Shown here: in pieces, positions 604 through 39,365 of the stretch
Layout: every line of letters begins with the position of its first letter
How positions within the stretch are numbered: position 1 is the first letter of the stretch
From: Eledone cirrhosa
Taxonomy: Eukaryota
DNA: 64,000 bases
NCBI GenBank assembly: GCA_964016885.1
Contig: OZ024742.1
Location: forward strand, 344,472,001 to 344,536,000
Direction of reading: 5' to 3'
The notes under the pieces: model-generated
Told to the model about the DNA's origin: nothing
Seen by the model: only the letters and a program-made list of their open reading frames with translations
Databases searched by the model: none
Translations under genes and position numbers: made by a program

Positions 604-3582
604 CTACAGCTGCATGACCAGAGTAGACCCACTCACACGGGCCATTCTCGCCACATTCACCCACCATTCAGCAAATGTACTGGGGGGCAGCACTACTCTC
701 TCCACCCTCACCTTCCTTTCCAAGTGAAACTTGAAAAAGTTGATGAGGGATTGGCCGAAGAGAAAAGTGTCTTCAGTCCTTTCAACCTCGTCCACCATAC
801 AACCTCTTTCGCTACTGCCATCAGACAGAGGAAAATTGTCTGCCCTTCCTGGCCAAAAGAAGGCGGCGGGTCGATCTTCAATATGGACTCGGCCGATAGC
901 CGGATCCGTTCTACACGCGACAACAGCTGTTCAACATAACTCCACAAGTTAGTAATGCACGGACACTGGACGAGTGCGTGCAGAACGGTTTCGTCGCTCT
1001 GCGCGCATCTCGGGCAGGTCCGTCTGACAGCACTTCCTTGCCTGTAGAGTTTATCTCGAACCGGCAGTGCCCCCCGGTAGCACTGCCAAGCGAGGGATTT
1101 TTGGAAATTATCCATCGTCTCCGGCTCGAAAGTCCTCCGGTACAGACTGGTTAGTTCGACTTCGTTGACTCCCAGAGCCTCTGCTAGTGCGTCGTATCAC
1201 TTGCCCACCACTAATCCTCTATAGAACTCGAGAGTGGAAGTTCCACTGACCTCATTGCCCGCCTGGTAGAGGGCAGTGAGTCCCTGGCAACATTCCAGAT
1301 GCCAGTCACCCAGTCTCGGTCTCTTCTTGACCCAGGACTGCAGCTCAGTCAAAGAAACGAGCCGCGGAAAGGCCCGTCTGACAAATGGCGACCACACCGG
1401 TTCACCGTTTAGGCAGAATATCTGGAGATGCCGCAGCCTCAGCGCGTGCCTGTGCATCATTAGCCACGGCATGCCCAGCCCTCCACGTAGAGGGTGCTGG
1501 CAGCAGATGGACCACCTCACCAGAATTTGAAGAGGAGCCGCTCCAAGATGGCGAGGCGCGAACGGGGGCAAGGGACGACAGTCAGACGGTAGTAGATGAC
1601 GGACGCGATGTACGCGTTCGCCACCTCCGCCCGTCCTTTCAGTGATAGCTTCATCCCAGCCCATTTCTGGGTGAGACTGGCTACCCTGCCTGTCACCTCG
1701 TCCCAATTCTTATCCACCTGGAGGTCTGGCCCAAACCAAACTCCGAGCAACTTTACCGGTACGTCCGTCCAGCGCCTAACGACGCTGTTGGACAGCATGG
1801 ACTTGCCTCTCCAGGTGCCGAGTTGCAAGCCCACCGACTTTTTCCGGGTTAAGTTTTGCTCCCGTCAACCTTCCATATTCCTCCAATAAGTTACAGACCA
1901 CCTCGATTTCTGAGGTGTCCGACACCATCACGGTGATGTCGTCCGCATAAGCCGACACAAGCTTTCCGCGTCCCGGTTCGAGCGGGATGCCCTGCTTCCG
2001 CAGTAAAGACTCGAGAGTCAATACGTACAGAAGGGAGGAGAGAGGGCCCCCTTGACGTACCAATCGGAGACCTGAAACGGTTCCGAGAGGTGGCCATTAA
2101 TTTTGACCATCGAGCAGGGGCCGCTGTGCATTGCAGCGATCCAGCTTCTGAAGACGGGGCCGAAGCCAGCCTTGAGGACAGCCTCCAGGTACCGATGGTC
2201 GACCCTATGGAATGCTTTCAATTGATCAGAATTGATCAGAGCCCCACCAAAGCCAGGTTTACACCCTACTCTCTCTATGATGTATCGCATTAGTTGGAGG
2301 TTGTCGAGTATGGACCTGGTTGAGATTGCGCAAGTTTGCGCCTCCCCAACCAAATTCCCGAAGACAAGCGCCAATCTCTTCGCTAACACCCTGGCTAAAA
2401 TCTTAAACTCTGTGTTGAGCAGAGTTATGGGCCTGAAATTGTCTAATGTGTCCCTCTTGTTCTCGTCTTTCCTTATCAGCGTCACTACACCCCGGCTGAC
2501 AGAACTGGGAATACTCCCGTTTTGCTGCCAGTTGCCATAGACGGTCGAGGAGATTGGAGAACAAGTCTGGCATATTTACGTAAAGCTCGTAGGGCAGACC
2601 ATCCAAACCGGGTGACTTGCCACTACCAATAGCCTCGTCTAACTTATCTACCAACTCCCCCTCCTTTCTATTTTTCTCTAACGCTACTTCTTTGCTAAGC
2701 TCTATCGACATTACGCTAATCTCTCTTTTGAGAGCCCCCGCCCCCCATCTATTGTTGACGACTCACCCTGTCAACTTTTTCTTAACTAAATTGTTGACCT
2801 GATCCCTGTAAGCCTTACGTGCCGGAAATGACATGTTTAGCTTCCAGTAACCAGGTCCTAACCTACGCGTCTTATCTAGGTCGACCATATAGATCACAAA
2901 CTTGTGATCTGAATAGGCGACCGTTTTAAAACGTGGACAGCTTACACTATTTCGGTCTATTTTCCTAATGAATATCCTGTCTATATACGATCTAGATGAC
3001 TCTATGCGGTTAGCCGAGGTCCACACAGGCGCATTAGGGAAATCTAGTCGGTACCTGTCAGACAGTTGGAACTGGCTGATCAGGTTCTTGAGGCTTTTGC
3101 ACCCCCCGCTCCTATCGGATACTCCCACACAGTCCCAGCGTGCGTCTAAGATGCCGTTCCATTCCCCGCTAACAGTAAAGGGCGAGACGTGCCCAGAAAG
3201 GCTTCCAGACGTCTAAAGATGTCCGGCCGTCCTGCCCCAGTAGGAGCATAGACGGCCACCAGTCTAAAGGCACCACCTTCGTTATTGTTCACGTTCAGGA
3301 CCACCAACTTCCCACCCGGGTCCCGGAAGATCGACCTTACCTCGAGATCCAGGCCTTTCCTAAACAGCACTGCCACCCCGCCTCCCATTCCCAGCCGGCT
3401 AACAGATGCAAAGATGTGATAGTCATCGAAAATGGGGGCTAGTGCGCGCGTGTCGGAAATCCTGGTTTCGCTGACTGCAATTACATCCATTCTAGAGACC
3501 TGAGGTCATTGAGCAGGTGACCCTGCTTCCAGGACGATCCCAGGCCTCGAACATTTAAACATCCTACTCTTAATACGGCCAT
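604..3582 (-). pseudogene. Tx1-like ORF2 (AP endonuclease + reverse transcriptase + C-terminal Cys motif), frameshifted and internally deleted
   Basis: Starts MAVLRVGCLNVRGLG (ATG at 3582). Motifs: VIAVSETR, VAVYAP, SYIDRIF, YSDH, GYWKLN, KSPGLDGLP, NFRPITLLN, VRQGGPLS, AYADD, CPRC..ETVLHALVQC. The motifs lie in several frames. Confidence 0.9.
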
Positions 3583-16198: not shown

Positions 16199-16270
<72 letters not shown>

Positions 16271-16273
<3 letters not shown>

Positions 16274-17060
16274 TTATAAGAATCAAAGTTCTGTTCAAAT
16301 CATTTATATGCTTACAATTGTTTCCTCCAAACCGAGGTTTGGCTTCTTCGGAGCAATTTATTAATGAATGATCACATATATGACCTCCTTTTCAACCCAA
16401 GAGACATACAGATACATATGCATATATTGTTGCTTGGTGGGTCGACATCCATTATAACATTTAGCGTGGCAGTATACATTTAAAGATTACATTCATATCA
16501 AAAGAGGATAAAATTAAAATTAATGTTAAAATACAACATGAAATTAATGCGATAAGATAGTCAGAAGCAGATAGTGTGTGCAACAGTTACACGTGTGGCA
16601 AGCACGTGTGTCTTATTCATATAATATTATAGTGCGGCAGGGTGTTACATGTAATACAAGCACTTTAAGCGGGTAATTAAGAGTATTAAGGGGGTTGTAC
16701 AGGTAATGTATTTTTTATATAAATGTTATAGAAGCTTGTGTGTAGACAAATATTATAAATATTAAAAATATTAGAAATGTGTAGCAAAGCGATGATATGG
16801 TTTTCGGTTACAGCACCATTTTCACAGTCCGGAGAGCGTAATATCTAGATTATATGCCCCTCACATAATCCACGTCGATTCAATATTGGACGTTTGATGA
16901 TTCTGGTAGAGTATCATAGTTTGTTGGTCATTAGTCCAATATAGCAGGTTGTTTTGGTTGCGAGAATCAACATCGTATTATTTTCCGGAAGTGTGTGTGA
17001 CTAAGGGGAGTTAATGCGTGAGGGGTGGTAACTCACTGATTTCTATAACTAAATATTATC
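16271..17060 (-). mobile_element. Diverged solo 3' arm (pLTR-like) of the PLE family at 27540-32743, with HHR at 16309-16355
   Basis: Colinear with 27540-28340. The best-conserved blocks are the HHR (TGCT-CCGAAGA-AG-CCAAAC-ctcg-GTTTGG-AG-GAAA-CAATTG-TA-AGCA) and CCGGAAGTGTGTGTGAC..AATGCGT.AGGGG.GGTAACT. Confidence 0.85.
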
Positions 17061-17157
17061 CTACGTTTATTTTTATTTTTATTTTTATTTGTCTCCTTCC
17101 TCCTATTTTCTAAATGTATTTCCACACACCCTCTGAACTCTCTTCCTAACCTATTTA

Positions 17158-17190
17158 CTCCTGAAGAAGGGCTTATACCCGAAATATCGA
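17158..17190 (+). ncRNA. Minimal hammerhead-like motif
   Basis: TC-CTGAAGA-A-GGG-cttata-CCC-GAAA-TATC-GA. Stem III is the palindrome ATAT, and stem I has only 2 bp. Confidence 0.5.
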
Positions 17191-17270
17191 CCCCCCTCCC
17201 CACTCGCAAAAGCGTGAACCTAATAAACCTTTATTTGTCTGCCTCTTTGTTTTGTTCCCGTATAAATTTG

Positions 17271-18185: not shown

Positions 18186-18737
18186 ATTACTCTTTTACTC
18201 TTTTATCTGTTTCAGCCATCCGGCTGAGGCCATGCTGGGGCACCGCCCTTGTTGCTACACATTTTATCTCCAGCCTGTATAGGTTGGCCACTGGTGCAAG
18301 GGGGAGTTTGTTGCTGCTGCCCTTAGGTTTCCCTTGTGTCTTGCTGTGGGCTCATCCGGGATCCTGGATAACAAGGTGTCGAGATGTTTCTTGAAGACAT
18401 CCACCTCCACGTCATGCAAATCTCTCAGATCCCTCGGCAGCCTGTTGAAGAGTTGAGGGCCCTTGAATCCCAGGCTATTGCAATACCTGCTCCTTATTCT
18501 AGATGTGGAAGACGGGACCTTTGGCACCACACAGTGACGTCCTGTTCGACGGTTGGTCCAGCTCCCAATGCCAAAGTTTGGTGCTAGTCCCTCCAGGATT
18601 TTCCACATGTAGATCACTGCGTATCTCTGCCGTCTTCGCTCCAAGGAGTAGAGGTTCAGTTCCTTTAGCCTCTCCCAGTAGCTTGTCTCCTTCATCGTGG
18701 CAATCCTCTTGGTGTAGTATCGCTGGATTGCCTCAAT
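18186..18737 (-). mobile_element. CR1-group LINE 3' fragment
   Basis: [44 protein letters not shown]. The 3' tail is a tandem TAAAAGAG, and the fragment is embedded in TA-rich microsatellite. Confidence 0.85.
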
Positions 18738-18805
18738 ACATATATACGTATACATATATACATACATATACATATATATACATATACATACACATATATA
18801 TATAC

Positions 18806-18857
<52 letters not shown>

Positions 18858-22068: not shown

Positions 22069-25000
22069 CTAACAGCGCTGCGATCGAATGTGGCTTTTTA
22101 GCCCAGCCATTGATCTAAAATGTCTTGCACAGAGTCGGCAACCAAAACATTCACTGGGAATAGCCGGCTGTGGTTGGAGTTCGTGTACTTTTGCATGTCG
22201 CTTGAGCCCTCCTGCTGATTTACATTCTCTACCACATGTTTGGCAAGCATGATGAGTAGCATCTCCAACAGCAGCCTGGTAGTCAACCACTGGTCTTACT
22301 TTATGACTGCGAAGATGACTTTCGAGTCCCGCTTTGCTTAGGCAGAGTCTCGCACAGACGCTGCATGTCAGCACCATAGGAGGAGCCTCGCCGTCTTGAA
22401 GTGCAACAGCAATGCCCTTCCTCACATCCCGCTTTACTTTCTCTTATGCGATTCGAGACGCCTCAAAGGCAACTTTTCCCTCATATACAGTTTTTCTCCA
22501 TTTATTACGATCAGCAGCAATATTTTCCCATGTATCAGCAGAGATGTTAGCGTCTTTCAGAGAGGCTTTCACGGAATCCTTACACCTCTTTTTTGGTTTA
22601 TGTGGCGGTCGATTTCCTTTAACCAACTCTCCATAAAAGAGTTGTTTTGGTATTCTAGAATCTTTCATCCTGGCAAGGTTACCACTCCAACGGAGTCGTT
22701 GCTTAAGCACAAGAGCTTCTATACTGTCACACATAGAGCTTTCCAAAATCTCGACATCACTGATGTGGTCCCTCCAGTGAACGCCATGGAACCGTCTGAG
22801 ACACAACTGATAGAAACGTTCCAATTGTTTAAGGTGGTGTCGATATGTGACCCAGGTCTCGCAGGCATAAAGAAGACAAGAGAGCACACATGCCCTGTAC
22901 ACCTTTACCTTTGTCCTCCTGCATATGTCTCGCCGACCCCAGAGTCGCCTTTCTAGCTTTTCGAAAGCATCACTTGCTTTCCTAATCCTAAGTGAGATTT
23001 CACTGTCAAGGTTGCTGAATCGAATAACAGTGCTTCCCAGGTAGACAAATTAATCAACTACTCCAAGTCGTTTACCATACACATAGATATTTGGTTCACT
23101 GTACTGCTTATCAGGGGGAGGTTGGTACATGACGACGGTTTTCTTGAGACTGACAGTCAATCCTAGGGCAGTGCAAGCGTCAGAAAATGGATTCAAAATG
23201 TGCTGCATATCACTCTCTGTGTGCGCTACAAGATTGCAATCATCTGCTTACAAGAGGTCTCTTATGATTGATGTAAATACTTTTGTCTTTGCAGCAAAGC
23301 GCCTGATGTTAAATACGCTGCCTGAGGTTAGATATCGGATGTAAACACCATGCTCGCAATTCCTGAATGCAATACAGAAAACCATTGTAAAGTATATGAC
23401 AAACAGGGTCGGTGCTGGAATATCCCCCTGTTTTACTCCATTTTTTACTGAGATAGGCTCCGACATGTTACCTCCGACATTAATCCAAGCCTTCATGTCG
23501 TCATGGAAAGACCTAACTAAAGCAAGGAACATATCAGGTCAACCAAGTTTCTGGAGAACCTTCCATAATGCATTTCTGTTAACAGTATCGAAAGCTTTTG
23601 TCAGATCGACAAAAACATGATACAGATCCAAGCTTTGTTCCATGCACTTCTCCTGGAGCTGTCTAGCTGAGAAGATCATATCAGTAGTGCCGCGTCCAGC
23701 ACGAAAACCAGATTGACTTTCAGGAAGAACACAATCTGCAATGTGTGTCAGCAGACGGTCCAGAAGCACCCTACATAAAACTTTCCCTACGACAGAAAGC
23801 AATGATATACCTCTATAGTTCCCACAATCATTCCAGTTGCCCTTTCCCTTGCACAAGACCACCATTACTGCATCTCTCCAGTCCTCAGGTACGGATTCAT
23901 TAGCCCATATCCTGCCAAACAAAGAGTGAAGATGTTGCAGAAGTCTCTCACCACCATATTGTAGGAGCTCAGCATGTATGCCATCCATACCTGGAGATCT
24001 TCCACTGTTCAGCTTCGAAATAGCCACTGCAACCTCCACAAGCGTCGGGGGTTCTGCGAGAGTTACTTTCACAGGACTTTCTGGAATGAGATTGAGGAAA
24101 TCTTCACTGACGACAGACGGCTGATTCAAAAGATCATCAAAGTGCTCTCGCCACCTTCGTAGAATTCCTTGTGAGTCACGAAGAAGTTCTTTGCCATCCT
24201 TCCTGCGAAGCGGTGTCACCAGAGAAGAAGACGGTCCATAAACCTCACGCAAGAGACTGTACAACAGCTTTGTGTTATTGGAATCTGACGCAGTTTGAAT
24301 CTCACCAGCCTTCTCACTCCACCACTGATCCTTCATCTGAGAAAGACTCCGCCTAACACGTTATTTTACATCCTTGAGTTTCTCATGCAACGTATTCCTC
24401 CCCTGTGGTTTTGCCGTCAAGTAGCGTGACAGAGCACGCCTCTTATCAACCAACAAGTCTTCTATATGTACATCATTCTCATTAAACTAGTCCTGATGTT
24501 TTCTCTGCACCAATCCAAGAACACGCCTGCCTACATCATAAACCGCCTTTTTAAGGGTCGACCAATCCTCACCAAGATCTACAGCCTGCATCTCTTCTTC
24601 CAATGTCCTCTTCACATTTTTATCCTTAAGACGAGCAGCATTCAATCATTTCGGCTGGGCAACACCAGGAGCCCGGATTTTACGTTTAGTGATTAGTTTC
24701 ACTTTTGCGCGTACCAGGCGGTGGTGCGTCCAGCACTCAGCTCCACGAAGAGCACGAACACACTGCACATCCTGTCTGTCACGCATCCTTACTAGGACGT
24801 AGTCCAAAAGATGCCATTCCTTAGATGCAGGATGCATCCATGTGGTCTTGAATTTGTTCTTTTGTTGGAACATGGTGTTGGTAACACACAGATCCAGCTC
24901 CTCACGCATCTGCAGCAGGAGCATACCATTGCTGTTACACTTTCCCACCCCATGCCTTCCGATTACATTCCATATGTTAAAATCCCTACCCACTCTAGCA

Positions 25001-27492: not shown

Positions 27493-27578
27493 CATATACA
27501 TATATATACATATACATATATATATATATACATATATAGAGAGATTACAATAATCAAAGTTCAGTTTAAATCATTTAT

Positions 27579-27627
27579 TTGCTTACAATTGTTTCCTCCA
27601 AACCGAGGTTTGGATTCTTCGGAGCAA
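27579..27627 (-). ncRNA. Hammerhead ribozyme (CCGAAGA core) in left PLE arm
   Basis: Exact reverse complement of 32656-32704. Confidence 0.75.
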
Positions 27628-29353
27628 CTATTTAGTGATCTATAACATACTTGACCTCCATTTCAACACAAGAGACATATAAAAACATATGCACATATTG
27701 ATCCACAGTGGGATGACATCCATCAAAATGATATAGCATGGCAGTTTACATATAACGGTTAAAGGATAAAGATAAAAATTAAAATTAAAATTAAAATGAA
27801 GCCTTGGTACTCTATGAAGATAAAGCAAGAGGAAAGTTTAGAGTAGTCAGTATATGAAACAATCTCCCGTGTAGCATGCACGCGTGTCTTATTTATACAG
27901 GATTAGAATGCGTCAGAATGTTACTTGCAGGGTCAGGCAGTAGAAGCAGGCAATCGATAGTATTATGTGGGCTGAATTATTAAATCATTTTTTCGCATAC
28001 ACCTGTATGATATACAATCCCGAATGTAGAGAAACACCAAAATATCAAAAATATCAAACATATTATATCGTAGGCAAAACAGTACCACTGTCTTCCCGCA
28101 CACCACCACTCACATAATCCATGAGACGCAATATATAGACCACGGGTCTATCATATAATTCACGATGGTTCGGCATATAACCAAGTTATAAACCGTATCT
28201 TGTCGATTCTTAATTAATAGATCATGTTGTTTAGTTTTGTGTGATGATATTATATTCCGGAAGTGTGTGTGTGACCAAGGGGAATTAATGCGTAAGGGGA
28301 GGTAACTAGCTGTTTTACTTAGTTAAATTTATTATCCTAAATTACATTAATGGTGTTTCAAATAAGTGCCTATCATATAATGTTATAACTAGTTTCTAGA
28401 TTATGTTACTTATCTATAGGTTACAGTGTTGTCTATTAAGAAGTACTAAAGGTGTATATATCAGGATGATTACCTTCTATTAAGGGGTGTCATATCTGAA
28501 CATTCTATAAGAAGAGTCAGACCCACAAATCAATGTTCTTTGTAAGTGTAATTCCTCCCGCAGGACCTGGCATGGTTCTATTATTTTATATGTGACTCCC
28601 GGTAAGCTCCGGGTCATTGTATGTCTGAATCCTTGGTAAATCTGAATATCTCCAGGGTGGTCTGGAGATCAAATCTCTCATATAAAGACACCAGTCTGGT
28701 CATCAAGCAGTAGATAAACTCCTATCTCATATATAAATTAAATTAGGTATCTTATCTACAAATTAGAGTTGAGTCTATTAACAAGTACTAAAGGAGTTCA
28801 TATCATGAAGATTACAATCTGGAGATCAAATCTCCCATAAAAAGTCACCAGTCTGGCCACCAAGCAATACATAAACTCTCATCTCATATATAAATTAAAT
28901 TAGGTATCTTATCTACAAATTAGAGTGGATTCTATTAATAAGTACTAAAGGGGTTCATATCCTGATGATTACAATCTAATCTAGAGTGCCACTCCTGGAC
29001 AATCTATAAGCAGAGTCAGACTACAAAATTAATTATAAGGGTTTCACTACTAATAAGGGTCTTATTACTAATAATGGTCTAATTATCATACAAGACTCGC
29101 GGCAAGTTTCGGGTCATTGTATGACTGCATTCCCGGTAATTACACCAGGGTGGTCCGGGGACCTGTTCTCTCATCAAAAGATACTAGTCAGGTCATCAAG
29201 CAACACAGAGACTCCTAACTGATGTATCATTGAATTTTTTATAATCTACACTCCTACTTATAGATTATAATCTACACTCCTACTTATAGATTATAATCTA
29301 CACTCCTACTTATAGATTATAAAAAATTCAATATAGAAAGAACTAGAAAACTA

Positions 29354-30705
29354 TTGCACAACACATTCAAAAACTATAACCTTAGTATTACCATGGACAC
29401 CCAAAACGTCAACTTCCTAGACGCCACACTCTACCTAGACTCAATGATATATACACCTTTCCACAAACCCAATGAAAAACTCATCTACGTAGATACCAAG
29501 TCTAACCACCCTAGATCCATATTAAACTCTATCTCTAAGGGAGTATCTAATAGAATCTCTAATCTATCCTATGACATAAACACATTTAACAATAACTCGC
29601 AGTACTATAATCAGGCATTAGCTAGATCAGGACATAATACAGGGATAGAGTTCCTATCTACAAAAACGCATAGCTACAACATTATTTCACACAACATGTC
29701 CATGGGAAAATTTAATAATAGGAATAGCAACCACACACACACTAATAGAGATGATAACAACAATAGTAACCCACACCACAGAAATTACCATAGTAACATT
29801 AAAGGAAACAAATCACCGGACATAAAAAACAGAAATAGAAGAAGAAATAATACATTTTTCAACCCTCCTTTCAATCTAAACGTCTCTACCAACCTACCTA
29901 GGGCTTTCTTCTCACTACTGGATAAACAGTTCCCATCCGGCCACAGGTACCATAGCCTTTTAAACAAAAACACTATTAAAATCTCATACTCTATACGCCT
30001 AACTTAGCATACCACATAGCTAGTAGCAATAAAAGAAAAATTAATTCTTACTTCCAACAAACTAAATCACAACAGACGATAAACCTTCAAAATAACATTC
30101 AAAATGACAGTCAAAATAACATTATAGCAACTAACCATAATATCAATAGAAATAATAGTATTAGTATTAGTGTAAACATTAACGCTGCGAACGACAACCC
30201 ACATAACCATAACACTATAGCTAACATCCAAACTTCTACACAGCATAGTAACCGGCAGACTAACACCCAGAATAATTGTAACTGTAGATCAAATAGAACC
30301 TGCCCTTTAGATAAAAAATGCTTAACCAAGGATATCATATACTCATGTACAGTCACAACTAACAACTCTTCTGAAACCTATATAGGCTCTACTTCTAACT
30401 GCTTCAAAACTAGATACAACTCGCACCTCCACTCTTTCAAAAAACACAGTCTGGCCAACTCCACTTCACTATCTAGCTACATACACTATCTAAAAACTAA
30501 AAATAAAATATACACACTTAAATGGGAAGAGGTAGGTAGTGCATCATCGTACAAACCACCTAATAAATTTTGTAACCTCTGTCTACTAGAGACACATACT
30601 ATCATCTTCTCTAACCATAATCTCCTTAATAAAAAATCAGAAGTGTTCGCATCTTGCCAACACCGCCTCCGACACTCTTTCCAAAACTTTAAACCCTATA
30701 TATAA
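29354..30705 (+). pseudogene. PLE polyprotein C-terminal half: RT thumb, Asn-rich linkers, Cys cluster and GIY-YIG endonuclease (frameshift at ~29994)
   Basis: First frame: NFLDATL..FHKPN..YVDTKSNHP and FFNPPF..KISYS. The Met-less frame 29995-30705 reads CNCRSNRTCPLDKKCLTKDIIYSCTV..TYIGST..FKTRYNSH..FCNLCLLE..LLNKKSE..CQHR. Confidence 0.9.
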
Positions 30706-32655
30706 CAATGTCAGACTGGAACCGTCACCACCCCTAGCAATTAGCATCAGTAGCACACCTCACACCTCATCTCCACACCCATTTATATACTCTAAAGGTA
30801 ATACTGGCAGCATTATAACACCTTCTACCCTGGGAATACCCCCATGTACTTCTAATTCTGATATCTCGGCCGTGAATTACTTAAACTGCATTGCACAAAT
30901 ATATGATTAATATAAACTGTAGACACGGTATTGGTTGTGCTAACATAGTCCTGTGCATGGAGTGCCACCATGAGATAGATTGATGATTAAGTAAGTAATC
31001 TTATTATTATGTGACTATATATTCTATAGGATCAGTACAATGAATTATGCACGGGTGATACATCAGTTAGGAGTCTCTGTGTTGCTTGATGACCTGACTA
31101 GTATCTTTTGATGAGAGAACAGGTCCCCGGACCACCCTGGTGTAATTACCGGGAATGCAGTCATACAATGACCCGAAACTTGCCGCGAGTCTTGTATGAT
31201 AATAAGACCATTATTAGTAATAAGACCCTTATTAGTAGTGAAACCCTTATAATTAATTTTGTAGTCTGACTCTGCTTATAGATTGTCCAGGAGTGGCACT
31301 CCAGATTAGATTGTAATCATCAGGATATGAACCCCTTTAGTACTTATTAATAGAATCCACTCTAATTTGTAGATAAGATACCTAATTTAATTTATATATG
31401 AGATGAGAGTTTATGTATTGCTTGGTGGCCAGATTGGTGACTTTATATGGGAGATTTGATCTCCAGATTGTAATCTTCATGATATGAACTCCTTTAGTAC
31501 TTGTTAATAGACTCAACTCTAATTTGTAGATAAGATACCTAATTTAATTTATATATGAGATGGGAGTTTATCTACTGCTTGATGACCAGACTAGTGTCTT
31601 TATATGAGAGATTTGATCTCCAGACCACCCTGGAGATATTCAGATTTATCAAGGATTCAGACATACCATGACCCAGAGCTTACCGGGAGTCATATATAAT
31701 AATAGGACCATGCCAGGTCCTGCGGGAGGAATTACACTTACTAAGAACATTGATTTGTGGGTCTGACTCTTCTTATAGAATGTTCAGATATGACACCCCT
31801 TAACAGAAGGTAATCATCCTGATATATACACCTTTAGTACTTCTTAATAGACAACACTGTAACCTATAGATAAGTAGCATAATCTAAAAATTAGTTATAA
31901 CAGCATATGATAGGCACTTATTTGAAACACCATTAATGTAATTTAGGATAATAAATTTAACTAAGTAAAACAGCTAGTTACCTCCCCTTACGCATTAATT
32001 CCCATTGGTCACACACACACTTCCGGAATATAATATCATCACACAAAACTAAACAACATGATCTATTAATTAAGAATCGACAAGATACGATTTATAACTT
32101 GGTTATATGCCGAACCATCGTGAATTATATGATAGACCCGTGGTCTATATATTGCGTCTCATGGATTATGTGAGTGGTGGTGTGCGCGAAGACAGTGGTA
32201 CTGTTTTGCCTACGATATAATATGTTTGATATTTTTGATATTTTGGTGTTTCTCTACATTCGGGATTGTATATCATACAGGTGTATGCGAAAAAATGATT
32301 TAATAATTCAGCCTACATAATAATATCGATTGCCTGCTTCAACTGCCTGACCCTGCAAGTAACATTCTGACGCACTCTAATCCTGTATAAATAAGACACG
32401 CGTGCATGCTACACGGGAGATTGTTTCATATACTGACTACTCTAAACTTTCCTCTTGCTTTATCTTCATAGACTACCAATGCTTCATTTTAATTTTAATT
32501 TTTATTTTTATCTTTATCCTTTAACCGTTATATGTAAACTGCCATGCTATATCATTTTGATGGATGTCATCCCACTGTGGATCAATATGTGCATATGTTT
32601 TTATATGTCTCTTGTGTTGAAATGGAGGTCAAGTATGTTATAGATCACTAAATAG

Positions 32656-32704
32656 TTGCTCCGAAGAATCCAAACCTCGGTTTGGAGGAAACAATTGTAA
32701 GCAA
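32656..32704 (+). ncRNA. Hammerhead ribozyme (CCGAAGA core) in right PLE arm
   Basis: Stem I TTGCT/AGCAA; core CCGAAGA; stem II A-TCCAAAC-ctcg-GTTTGGA-G; GAAA; stem III palindrome ACAATTGT. Predicted GUA cut after 32699. Confidence 0.75.
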
Positions 32705-32985
32705 ATAAATGATTTAAACTGAACTTTGATTATTGTAATCTCTATATAACTGCTCTGTAAAATAACCGATGTTATTACATTGAGCTATTTATCTTACTGG
32801 TAATAAGATAGTAATTAATGACTATCTTTCACTATTTAGGGTTTGTATAAAAAATATATAACCATAAAAGGTTTATTATAACATAACCATAAATAGCATC
32901 CTTAATACTATATACATATATATACATATACATATATACATATATATACATATATATATATACATATATATACACATATATATAC

Positions 32986-34329: not shown

Positions 34330-34467
34330 GCACACATATATATATGTACGTATGGGTTTACCGAACATTTATTATAATGTTCGATTTGTTTGTAAACAAA
34401 CATCCCGAATTACGCCGTACAGTGTTCGTCAACCATCGTCGCCTTTTTGTTCAACACTGACACAGAA

Positions 34468-34510
34468 ACGATGTACTAGTTTCAAGCTTATTAGCTATCG
34501 TCAGCATCGT
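34468..34510 (-). ncRNA. Type I hammerhead ribozyme (family A)
   Basis: ACGATG-CTGACGA-TAGCT-aata-AGCTT-GAAA-CTAG-TA-CATCGT, with a 6-bp stem I and palindromic ACTAGT. Confidence 0.85.
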
Positions 34511-34968
34511 ATACCTTCCTGTCAGATGATTGAACGTTTGAAAGTATATACTTTCCTTATGCATATTAATGGCTGAGCAGCCTAATTTGCATATCGAGTG
34601 AATTAGTCGGCTGGGCGTACGGAAAACGATATGCAAAAGGAAAGTAATTCGAGCTGTTTTTTACAAACACACCGAGCATTATAATAAATGTTCGGTGAAT
34701 CCATACGTACATATATATATGTGTGCATGTATGTATATATATATACATACTACTATACGTCTGTATACATATATGTATGTACGTATACATACTTACATTT
34801 AAGTAACAGCCGTACTAAGAGTGAGAAATGAAATTCGTTTCATTTTTTCCGTTTTCAGTGCGCTCGGCCGATTAACTCACTCGATATGCAAATTAGGCTG
34901 CTCAGCCGTTAATATGCATAAGGAAAGTATATACTTTCAGACGTTCAATCATCTGGCAAGAAGGTATG

Positions 34969-35010
34969 CGGTGCTGACGAGGGCTAATAAGCTTGAAACT
35001 AGTACATCCG
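34969..35010 (+). ncRNA. Type I hammerhead ribozyme (family A)
   Basis: CGGTG-CTGACGA-GGGCT-aata-AGCTT-GAAA-CTAG-TA-CATCCG. Confidence 0.8.
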
Positions 35011-35213
35011 TTCTTTGTCAGTGTTGAACAAACGGGCAACGGTGGTTGCTAGACACTACGGCTTAATTCGGGATGTTTGCTTACAAACACACCGAGCATT
35101 ATAATAAATGTTCGGTAAATCCATACGTACATATATATGTGTGTGTGCATATATGTATATATATATACATACTACTGTACGTCTGTATACATATATGTAT
35201 GTACGTATACATA

Positions 35214-35446: not shown

Positions 35447-36244
35447 TAAGACAGGGGGGAAGAAAAAATGGCTTCACTTGTGCTTTCAACAAATTTATTT
35501 TCTTCACAAAATCCAAAAAGGATTTTTCTTAAAAAAATTATTTTATAAATTAAGTTGTTGGTTGTTGGTTAGGTCTTAGGAGTTCTTGGTTAACGTAGGA
35601 GGTATTGTTTCGTTTTTAGAAAGACCTTTCACGCTGAGGTGCGCTTGTCAAACTGATGTGTATGTGGTGTGTTGTTCTATATATAGGGATTTAACATGTC
35701 TGTGGTGTGGTGGGGGTTTCTTTTCTCCCCCTTTAATAAGTGCATGGGTGTAGGTGTGTTGAAAAAGTGTTCATAGCAGTAATGAGTTGAGACGGTGAGT
35801 AGGGTTGGGTGGGGAGAAATGTAGCAAGTGCGGCCTGCCCCGGTCATTCTCGAAAAATTCCTTTATTCAGGGGAAAAAGCTTTTAGTATTGCTTTTGTGT
35901 TGAGAATGGTCACAGGCAAATCGCACCTGTCAAGTTTGTGAATAATTATTTTTTTCTTCTTTTTTTCCTGAAGAATTTTTCTACGTCCATCCCAAAGTTA
36001 GTCCTTTGTTCAACACACACATATGTGCGCATATACGTACATACACACACGGGCATATGTAGGAATATATAGGCACACACCATCAATCACACACCCATGC
36101 ACAAATACATCCACATACATACACAAAAATATATAGAGACACATATAAAAACACACATATACATACGTACACACACGAATATGTACTCATACTTCCACAT
36201 GGGTATATATATATATATATATACATACACATACACATACACAT

Positions 36245-37591: not shown

Positions 37592-38102
37592 TATGCATAC
37601 TAGTATTTCAGTATACATATGTGGATGTACATTTTTAACTTAATTGTTTAAGCGTCAGTCATACAAAAGTGAGTTACAAACGAAACGAAATTTAATTTCG
37701 TTTCGTTATTTGTTTTTATCGTCTCCGTTGAACCGGTACGTACTCACGCTCTATGCAAATTAGTCTGCCCACTACTAATTTTCATAGAAAAAGCATATAA
37801 CGATATGTGCTTTTACGATTCTCTAGAGACGCCGGAAGATAGGTAAATATTGCTGATGAGATGTAACAACATCGAAACTAGTTCAATATTCCTTGTCTGG
37901 CTTTCTGGAGAATAGAGGAAAGGTGTTTCCTCAAAAACCAGTATGACTCTAAAAACCGGTTTGTCTGTGTGTTTACATACAGAATAGCTGGACACTGAAA
38001 TAGTGACCAGTGAAAAACTCGGTACATCTACATATGTATACGTGTGTGTATTCATATGCATACTAGTATTTCAGTATACATATGTGGATGTACATTTTTA
38101 AC

Positions 38103-38503: not shown

Positions 38504-39365
38504 ATGTGTATGTGTATGTGTATGTATATCTATATATATACCCATGTGGAGGTATGAGTACATATTCGTGTGTGTACGTATGTATATGAGTGTTTTTATA
38601 TGTGTCTCTATATATTTTTGTGTATGTATGTGGATGTATTTGTGCATGGGTGTGTGATTGATGGTGTGTGCCTATATATTCCTACATATGCCCGTGTGTG
38701 TATGTACGTATATGCGCACATATGTGTGTGTTGAACAAAAGACTAACTTTGGGATGGACGTAGAAAAATTCTTCAGGAAAAAAGAAGAAAAAAATAATTA
38801 TTCACAAACTTGACAGGTGCGATTTGCCTGTGACCATTCTCAACACAAAAGCAATACTAAAAGCTTTTTCCCCTGAATAAAGGAATTTTTCGAGAATGAC
38901 CGGGGCAGGCCGCACTTGCTACATTTCTCCCCACCCAACCCTACTCACCGTCTCAACTCATTACTGCTATGAACACTTTTTCAACACACCTACACCCATG
39001 CACTTATTAAAGGGGGAGAAAAGAAACCCCCACCACACCACAGACATGTTAAATCCCTATATATAGAACAACACACCACATACACATCAGTTTGACAAGC
39101 GCACCTCAGCGTGAAAGGTCTTTCTAAAAATGAAACAATACCTCCTACGTTAACCAAGAACTCATAAGACCTAACCAACTACCAACAACTTAATTTATAA
39201 AATAATTTTTTTAAGAAAAATTCTTTTGGGATTTTGTGAAGAAAATAAATTTGTTGAAAGCACAAGTGAAGCCATTTTTTCTTCCCCCCTGTCTTAATAT
39301 ACCTAACTGTACCAAGGATTACACACATTTTCCAATATATATATATATATATAACTTTTATAGCT

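What the first reader, a model, noticed from the sequence alone, without database searches (positions are those of the whole stretch)
32656..32704. Conserved non-canonical CCGAAGA (U4C) hammerhead core in the PLE family
All three copies (16309, 27579, 32656) have CCGAAGA and an A.G mismatch at the base of stem II. The 16.3-kb copy is clearly diverged elsewhere but differs at only about two positions within this 49-nt motif. The variant therefore looks ancestral and under constraint, not decayed.
Basis: partly seen in the sequence, partly recalled or inferred. Interest (0 to 1): 0.7.

Follow-up and report, generated by a model that had tools for sequence, protein, structure and literature searches.

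The report
C4-core hammerhead in Hydra retroelements
This is the hammerhead-shaped RNA motif near the end of a very abundant jumping-gene lineage in which thousands of copies carry C at a core position that is U in relatives; it likely still cuts itself, slowly and only when two copies pair, but cutting is untested.

Summary
The motif is real: a type I hammerhead in the pseudo-LTR of a Hydra-clade Penelope-like element. The window's three copies are only two insertions, but genome-wide 3,303 copies have C4 against 78 U4, matched by 74 G5A, so U4 copies look like symmetric CpG decay. C4 is fixed in 16 of 16 subfamily consensuses, back to one with 77% RT identity. All 18 hammerheads found beside related elements from other organisms have U4. 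The motif is far more conserved than its flanks (47-48/49 versus 32-35/49). The A·G mismatch is not ancestral: that position is variable, and A·G appears in two separate lineages. The stem III palindrome changes (CGATCG, CAATTG, CAGTTG, CAGCTG) yet stays self-pairing, which points to a two-strand double hammerhead. All 88 copies checked end downstream of the predicted cut, so the template is uncut or religated RNA. Best reading: a slow, dimer-dependent ribozyme. No RNA data were available. U4C is known from a viroid, and this scan has noted C4 Hydra hammerheads before, here and in other genomes. Side finding: a mutation hotspot at the 5' base of stem II.

The parts
32656..32704 (+). Type I hammerhead motif of the 3' pseudo-LTR: stem I 32656-32660 with 32700-32704; core CCGAAGA 32661-32667 (C4 = 32662); A10.1 32668; stem II 32669-32686; G11.1 32687; GAAA 32688-32691
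   Evidence: sequence; folds
32691..32698 (+). Palindromic stem III (ACAATTGT), predicted to pair between two RNA copies; predicted cut after A32699 (GUA)
   Evidence: cofold of two copies gives the double hammerhead; palindrome kept through changes
32704..32709 (+). AATAAA immediately after stem I (possible polyadenylation signal; untested)
   Evidence: sequence; similar words in most subfamilies
29230..32909 (+). 5'-truncated main copy of a Hydra-clade Penelope-like element (subfamily A), ending at the long 3' end about 210 nt past the predicted cut, in (TA)n
29297..30705 (+). Frameshifted remnant of the RT thumb, linker (CxCx5C) and GIY-YIG endonuclease; two frames, 29297-30007 and 29980-30705
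   Evidence: GIY-YIG E=0.0018, below the Pfam cut-off; intact 828-832 aa relatives
27540..29229 (-). Inverted 5' arm of the same insertion; carries an identical motif at 27579-27627 and ends about 44-49 nt past the predicted cut
   Evidence: (98.2% over 1,690 nt)
16262..17063 (-). Short copy of sister subfamily B; motif at 16308-16356

Best explanation
The motif is the pseudo-LTR hammerhead of a Hydra-clade Penelope-like element, fixed for C4 across the lineage, and it likely works as a slow, two-strand (double) hammerhead that would cut after GUA only occasionally, probably with help from the element's protein. SHOWN: identity of the element; C4 in about 97% of matching copies; U4 copies as frequent as G5A copies; all 14 core positions invariant across 16 subfamily consensuses; a stem III palindrome that stays self-complementary; DNA copies ending about 44-49 or 211-217 nt downstream of the cut site. 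INFERRED: two hammerheads (the two pseudo-LTRs of one transcript, 4.2-4.7 kb apart, or two RNAs in one particle) pair through the 8-nt palindrome; C4 and the open 10.1·11.1 position lower the rate; slow cutting suits the element because reverse transcriptase starts downstream of the hammerhead and needs uncut (or religated) RNA. Whether C4 is preferred over U4, or only tolerated, is open; I lean to mildly preferred.
For: C4 3,303, U4 78, A/G4 25, G5A 74 (U4 vs G5A binomial p=0.81), so no revertant lineage expanded. Family F (RT 77%, EN 61% identical to subfamily A3) is C4-majority: roughly 60 CCG, 22 CTG and 10 CCA among 100 listed of 163, counted by eye. The youngest subfamily seen has intact ORFs and pseudo-LTRs 99.6-100% identical, and keeps C4. 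Motif 46-48/49 against upstream means of 32-35/49 for A, B and Y pairs. Stem III is CGATCG in F, CAATTG in most, and CAGTTG leading to CAGCTG in the B-Y branch. The two middle bases cannot pair within one strand; the wobble form CAGTTG is 15 of 100 listed and the mismatch form CAACTG 0 of 100. Stem III cells are 100% paired in 15 representatives. The cofold minimum is the double hammerhead for 6 of 9 subfamily representatives, and none of the 9 monomers folds as a hammerhead. Literature: U4C retains viroid infectivity (PMC3088659); no U4 escape mutants among 46 point-change clones in MS2 (PMC4075628); a PLE hammerhead is protein-assisted and uncut RNA is the main template (PMC11167929).
Against: No cleavage data of any kind. 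In a comprehensive mutagenesis of one type III hammerhead, mutants in the CUGA turn had low activity except the C3/G8 swap (PMC9901934), and U4C 'considerably decreases' activity in vitro. Here it is combined with loss of G10.1-C11.1 and a minimal stem III, so the rate could be near zero. No clear excess of 5' junctions at the cut site: about 0.2%/nt against a background of 0.12-0.21%/nt. The formal covariation control is not significant (36 of 500 shuffles reach the score; 70-396 of 500 for the other measures). 3 of 9 representatives (the CAGTTG form, D2, one F copy) do not cofold as a double hammerhead. Single-site evidence that C4 is preferred is weak (4 of 49 flank C/G columns are also invariant).
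Confidence: 0.55

Rival explanations
1. C4 is a tolerated change fixed by drift; the ribozyme cuts about as well as other Hydra-type hammerheads.
For: No U4 escape mutants in MS2. Unchecked scan notes report C4 and A4 in other Hydra families, suggesting position 4 is lax in this clade. Flank control gives only about 0.08 for C4 invariance.
Against: Published in vitro loss of activity for U4C. C4 sits in a CpG that decays to U in about 22 of 100 F copies, yet no U4 subfamily consensus was found among 16. If F is basal, the three other CpGs of its motif (one in stem II, two in stem III) were lost along the lineage while this one stayed; the root was not established. A single U4 copy (L295) could be a U4 subfamily or decay.
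Confidence: 0.2
2. The motif no longer cuts; it is kept as an RNA dimerisation or protein-binding signal, and C4 is one of the changes that switched catalysis off.
For: Two damaging features together (U4C, no G10.1-C11.1). Cleavage is dispensable for insertion in vitro in another PLE. No junction excess at the cut site. G17 or a missing base 17 in several E copies.
Against: C3, G5, A6, G8, A9, G12, A13, A14 and A17 are invariant in all 16 consensuses while N7, the loops and the stems change. That is the pattern of the catalytic fold, more than a kissing signal would need.
Confidence: 0.2
3. Conservation is not RNA-functional: a DNA-level promoter or binding site in the pseudo-LTR, or repeated sequence exchange between subfamilies that homogenises the motif.
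For: The motif lies about 290 nt before the ORF in the 5' pseudo-LTR. A·G in two lineages could reflect exchange. The downstream tail is also well conserved between A2 and Y.
Against: Changes keep base pairs, including G·U wobbles, in stems I, II and III. C·A and A·A forms occur with B-type and C1-type flanks, which fits stepwise change.
Confidence: 0.05

Closest known systems
Hydra-clade Penelope-like elements and their hammerheads (Craig et al. 2021, PMC8557442; passages, section 11, File S1 Hydra sheet and File S2 read)
   Same: RW[R/K], DKT, CxCx5C linker, CxxC and CxH around the endonuclease E and N, C-terminal GIY-YIG, (TA)n targets, type I hammerhead near the 3' end, open base of stem II (U·U in 14 of 26 rows)
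   Different: All 26 listed rows have CUGA (their descriptor required it); here C4. Longer unit (4.2-4.7 kb against under 3 kb). 10.1·11.1 drifted to C·U, C·C, C·A and A·G.
Minimal and short-stem-III hammerheads of metazoan PLEs (Cervera and de la Pena 2014, PMC4209133; main text parts 1-2 of 4, supplement parts 1-2 of 3)
   Same: Long stem II, short stem I, palindromic stem III, one copy in each pseudo-LTR, predicted dimer, low activity
   Different: All 56 motifs of their Fig. S3 have U4 (found by a CUGANGA-type descriptor); their core variant is U3-A8; most keep G10.1-C11.1.
U4C hammerhead variant of a viroid (Ambros and Flores 1998; not held, seen only as cited in PMC3088659 and PMC4075628)
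   Same: Same core substitution; reported as lower activity in vitro but sufficient in vivo
   Different: A viroid variant, not a state fixed in thousands of genomic copies of a long-lived retroelement lineage; its structural context was not seen.
PAc Poseidon element of Anolis (Frangieh et al. 2024, PMC11167929; parts 1-3 of 4)
   Same: Two reverse-transcription start sites downstream of the hammerhead that give a 'tail'; uncut RNA as template
   Different: Different PLE clade; its hammerhead overlaps the ORF start and its tail is far shorter than the about 165 nt seen here.

Membership tests
Hydra-clade PLE | Single ORF, RT with C-terminal GIY-YIG | tested here: met
   828-832 aa open frames in 8 of 10 fetched copies; GIY-YIG weak Pfam hit E=0.0018; the two full ORFs scanned gave no RT or GIY-YIG Pfam hit; homologue P0001 hits RVT_1
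Hydra-clade PLE | RWK motif, DKT in place of DKG, CxCx5C linker, CxxC and CxH around endonuclease E and N | tested here: met
   RVRWR (K to R), HADKT, CNCRSSRTC, CNLCLLE, N..CQH read; criteria
Hydra-clade PLE | (TA)n insertion, pseudo-LTRs, inverted 5' arm | tested here: met
Hydra-clade PLE | Placement within Hydra in an RT phylogeny | not tested
   no tree with reference PLEs was built
Type I hammerhead ribozyme | Stems I-III around the core, NUH site | tested here: met
   GUA site; stem III is complete only as a dimer
Type I hammerhead ribozyme | Canonical core C3 U4 G5 A6 N7 G8 A9 / G12 A13 A14 | tested here: not met
   U4 is C; all other core positions are canonical
Type I hammerhead ribozyme | G10.1-C11.1 (or another pair) closing stem II | tested here: not met
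   paired in 3 of 15 representatives
Type I hammerhead ribozyme | Site-specific self-cleavage | not testable with these tools
   needs an assay; only contig runs were available
Double (dimeric) hammerhead | Palindromic stem III kept by compensatory change | tested here: met
   the whole-structure shuffle control was not significant

The most novel reading that the evidence does not exclude
C4 is an evolved brake: the lineage is selected for a hammerhead that folds as an RNA dimer but cuts rarely, so that the polymerase can copy through it. The error hotspot at stem II positions 10.1-10.3 is a genomic footprint of the polymerase passing the folded motif. The family would then be a natural, thousands-of-copies test of what PLE hammerheads are for.
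Probability: 0.2. Interest if true: 0.7.

Novelty: new variant of a known kind. Interest (0 to 1): 0.45.

Why it matters
Why Penelope-like elements carry hammerheads is unresolved: cleavage is slow and was dispensable for insertion in the one in vitro system. A lineage that kept a C4 core through about 25% RT divergence, and kept a self-pairing palindrome through a G·U intermediate, gives matched natural variants for testing rate against dimer formation. CUGANGA-based searches, as used in the PLE surveys read here, would miss such families, so 'no hammerhead' calls may undercount.

Tried and rejected
1) Rfam scan: the listing was flooded by microsatellite miRNA hits; no match at the motif among the 150 of 318 rows shown. 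2) Sequencing runs: no RNA holder listed; four contig runs of one study were laid and are uninformative on cleavage. 3) An apparent U4-majority family F (11 CTG, 3 CCG, 2 CCA) was an ascertainment artefact: the CAATTG pattern picks doubly deaminated CGATCG copies, and the open pattern shows a C4 majority. 4) Junction excess at the cut site: of 29 insertions fetched from 68 matches, 8 were junctions, 2 deletions and 19 point mutants; 6 of the 8 keep the TA before the cut. The estimated rate (my rough denominator of about 2,200 copies) is near background. 5) An alternative register with CU as C3-U4 and a CC insertion was rejected because stem I pairs and covaries in the standard register. 6) Viral-contig pattern scan: 43 hits, none passing the stem filter. 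7) The alignment had one row on the wrong strand and was replaced; the first tree had mislabelled and mis-picked rows and was replaced (35 rows, stem II left out); one of six pairs (A2 vs Y_L189) failed to align and is not counted. 8) Lunse et al. 2016, Ambros and Flores 1998 and Nelson and Uhlenbeck 2008 were not held.

Full report
Observation. The 49 nt at 32656-32704 (+) form a type I hammerhead layout with core CCGAAGA, an A·G opposition at 10.1·11.1, a 7-bp stem II, GAAA, palindromic CAATTG, a GUA site and a 5-bp stem I. The copy at 27579-27627 (-) is identical but is the inverted arm of the same insertion (98.2% over 1,690 nt). The copy at 16308-16356 (-) matches 47 of 49 and belongs to a sister subfamily B, 68% identical over 823 nt. 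The window lies in a 3.0-Gb animal genome.

The element. The window holds a truncated, frameshifted RT-endonuclease remnant. Of 10 fetched copies, 8 have 828-832 aa open frames. These show RVRWR, HADKT, a CxCx5C linker and CxxC/CxH motifs around a C-terminal GIY-YIG, and they insert in (TA)n. These are the stated marks of the Hydra clade (PMC8557442 section 11); no RT tree with reference elements was built. Full copies carry the motif in both pseudo-LTRs, 4.2-4.7 kb apart, the 5' one about 290 nt before the open frame. Of 88 A-type copies, 51 end 40-56 nt and 26 end 195-225 nt past the predicted cut, 5 end elsewhere downstream and 6 run on. This resembles the two reverse-transcription starts of the Anolis element (PMC11167929). 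The template therefore includes an intact hammerhead.

Is C4 decay? No. With one pattern, C4 gives 3,303 matches, U4 78, A or G 25, and G5A 74 (reversed controls 0). U4 and G5A are equal (p=0.81), as expected from CpG deamination on either strand. A looser pattern gives 8,525 matches against 154 control, and 94 of the first 100 have C4. Older families E, G and F are also C4. F (163 matches; roughly 60 CCG, 22 CTG, 10 CCA of 100 listed, counted by eye) is 77% identical in RT and 61% in the endonuclease. The youngest subfamily seen, with near-identical pseudo-LTRs, also has C4. Across 16 subfamily consensuses (2-7 copies each) all 14 core positions are invariant; invariant columns are 24 of 49 in the motif, 13 of 120 upstream and 16 of 42 downstream. 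Pairwise, the motif scores 46-48/49 against upstream means of 32-35 for A, B and Y pairs. As an outgroup, 18 of 63 related loci from metagenome contigs had a detectable hammerhead with position 4 left free, and 18 of 18 have U4 (two are identical). So C4 is derived in this lineage and old within it. That C is preferred over U is less sure: 4 of 49 flank C/G columns are equally invariant, and one U4 copy (L295) could not be assigned.

The A·G mismatch. It is not ancestral. Positions 10.1·11.1 are U·U or A·U in F, U·A or A·A in E, C·U in D, C·C and C·A in C, and A·G in A, B and Y. On a 35-row tree built without stem II, A·G copies as one clade are rejected (p-AU 5.6e-9), so A·G arose twice or was exchanged. 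What persists is an open base of stem II (paired in 3 of 15 representatives), a trait of many published Hydra hammerheads (U·U in 14 of 26 rows).

Dimer signature. Stem III is CGATCG in F, CAATTG in most subfamilies, and CAGTTG then CAGCTG along the B-Y branch. The central two bases can pair only between strands. The wobble form is common (15 of 100 listed) and the mismatch form absent (0 of 100; 2 single copies). The minimum-energy cofold of two copies is the double hammerhead for 6 of 9 representatives; none of the 9 monomers folds as a hammerhead. The whole-structure shuffle control on 15 rows is not significant (36 of 500 at best), while slid controls are much lower.

Does it cut? Not testable here. 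For: the invariant catalytic residues; U4C keeps a viroid infectious (PMC3088659, passages and section 8); no U4 escape mutants in MS2 (PMC4075628, part 1 of 2). Against: CUGA-turn mutants had low activity in a full mutagenesis (PMC9901934, passages only, heat-map values not seen); no clear junction excess at the cut site; cleavage was not needed for insertion in vitro in another PLE. I put slow dimer cutting at 0.55, near-normal cutting with neutral C4 at 0.2, a non-cutting signal at 0.2 and a non-RNA cause at 0.05.

Side result. Individual copies mutate far more at 10.2 and 10.3 (43 and 28 of 257 clustered copies, out of 309 extracted) than at their partners 11.2 and 11.3 (2 and 8; p=2.6e-13). 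In 126 copies not chosen by pattern, 10.2 differs in 13 and 11.2 in 1. The two arms of one insertion differ at 10.2 in 14 of 55 pairs and at 10.3 in 9, against a mean of 1.8 elsewhere. Changes include transversions, multi-base swaps and 1-nt deletions. I infer a polymerase stall at the hairpin, either in second-strand synthesis or as reverse transcriptase leaves stem II; this is untested.

Prior knowledge. Nine full-text searches turned up no report of a C4 core in PLEs among the listings and passages I read. The 56 motifs of PMC4209133 Fig. S3 and the 26 Hydra rows of PMC8557442 File S2 all have U4, but were found with descriptors that require it. A viral survey used a CYGANGA descriptor and reports C/T degeneracy there (PMC13481778, passages). 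Also seen: PMC6765202, PMC7229834, PMC3884650, PMC3907566 and PMC11014351 (passages), and bioRxiv 10.64898/2026.07.22.740005 (part 1 of 5). Lunse et al. 2016 and its supplements could not be read and may bear on novelty. Earlier unchecked notes of this scan describe C4 Hydra hammerheads in this and other genomes, and an A4 family; I saw the Hydra-specific ones after reaching my own reading and do not count them as support.

Verdict. A real, lineage-wide core variant of a known ribozyme in a known element class: new variant of a known kind, interest 0.45.

Noticed in passing
window 32668-32670 and all family copies: Mutation hotspot at the 5' base of stem II (10.1-10.3), arising separately in the two arms of an insertion; the partner strand is not affected.
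   Followed up: partly
window 34346-34628 (-) and 34850-35130 (+); cores at about 34504 (-) and 34974 (+): Inverted pair from another family with a U4 hammerhead and CTAG palindrome; the two arms differ at 10.1-10.2, hinting that the hotspot is not limited to C4 families.
   Followed up: no
window 37835-37906 (+): Canonical U4 hammerhead with G10.1-C11.1 (Rfam HH9, 36.5 bits, below gathering), between the arms of the inverted repeat 35447-36073 / 38671-39296.
   Followed up: no
window 17161-17192 (+): Minimal U4 hammerhead-like motif of a further repeat beside the 16.3-kb copy.
   Followed up: no
window 41092-64000: 24-bp tandem array, about 959 copies, 88% matches, running to the window's end.
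   Followed up: no
family E copies (L071, L139, L145, L204, L210, L211, L219): Position 17 varies (A, C, G or missing) in this old subfamily; 1-nt loss at the cut site also appears in 3-4 of 68 rows.
   Followed up: partly
window 31058-31887: Internal tandem repeats in the 3' UTR (160-nt unit at 91%, about 340-nt unit at 68%); UTR length differs between subfamilies (about 1.45-1.95 kb).
   Followed up: no
motif, A·G subfamilies: G8-A9-A10.1 opposite G11.1-G12-A13 matches a three-consecutive-sheared-GA loop (motif recalled from memory, no call), which could favour the inactive ground state.
   Followed up: no
window 700-2575, 18264-18857, 22444-24360: Remnants of other non-LTR retrotransposon RT genes.
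   Followed up: no
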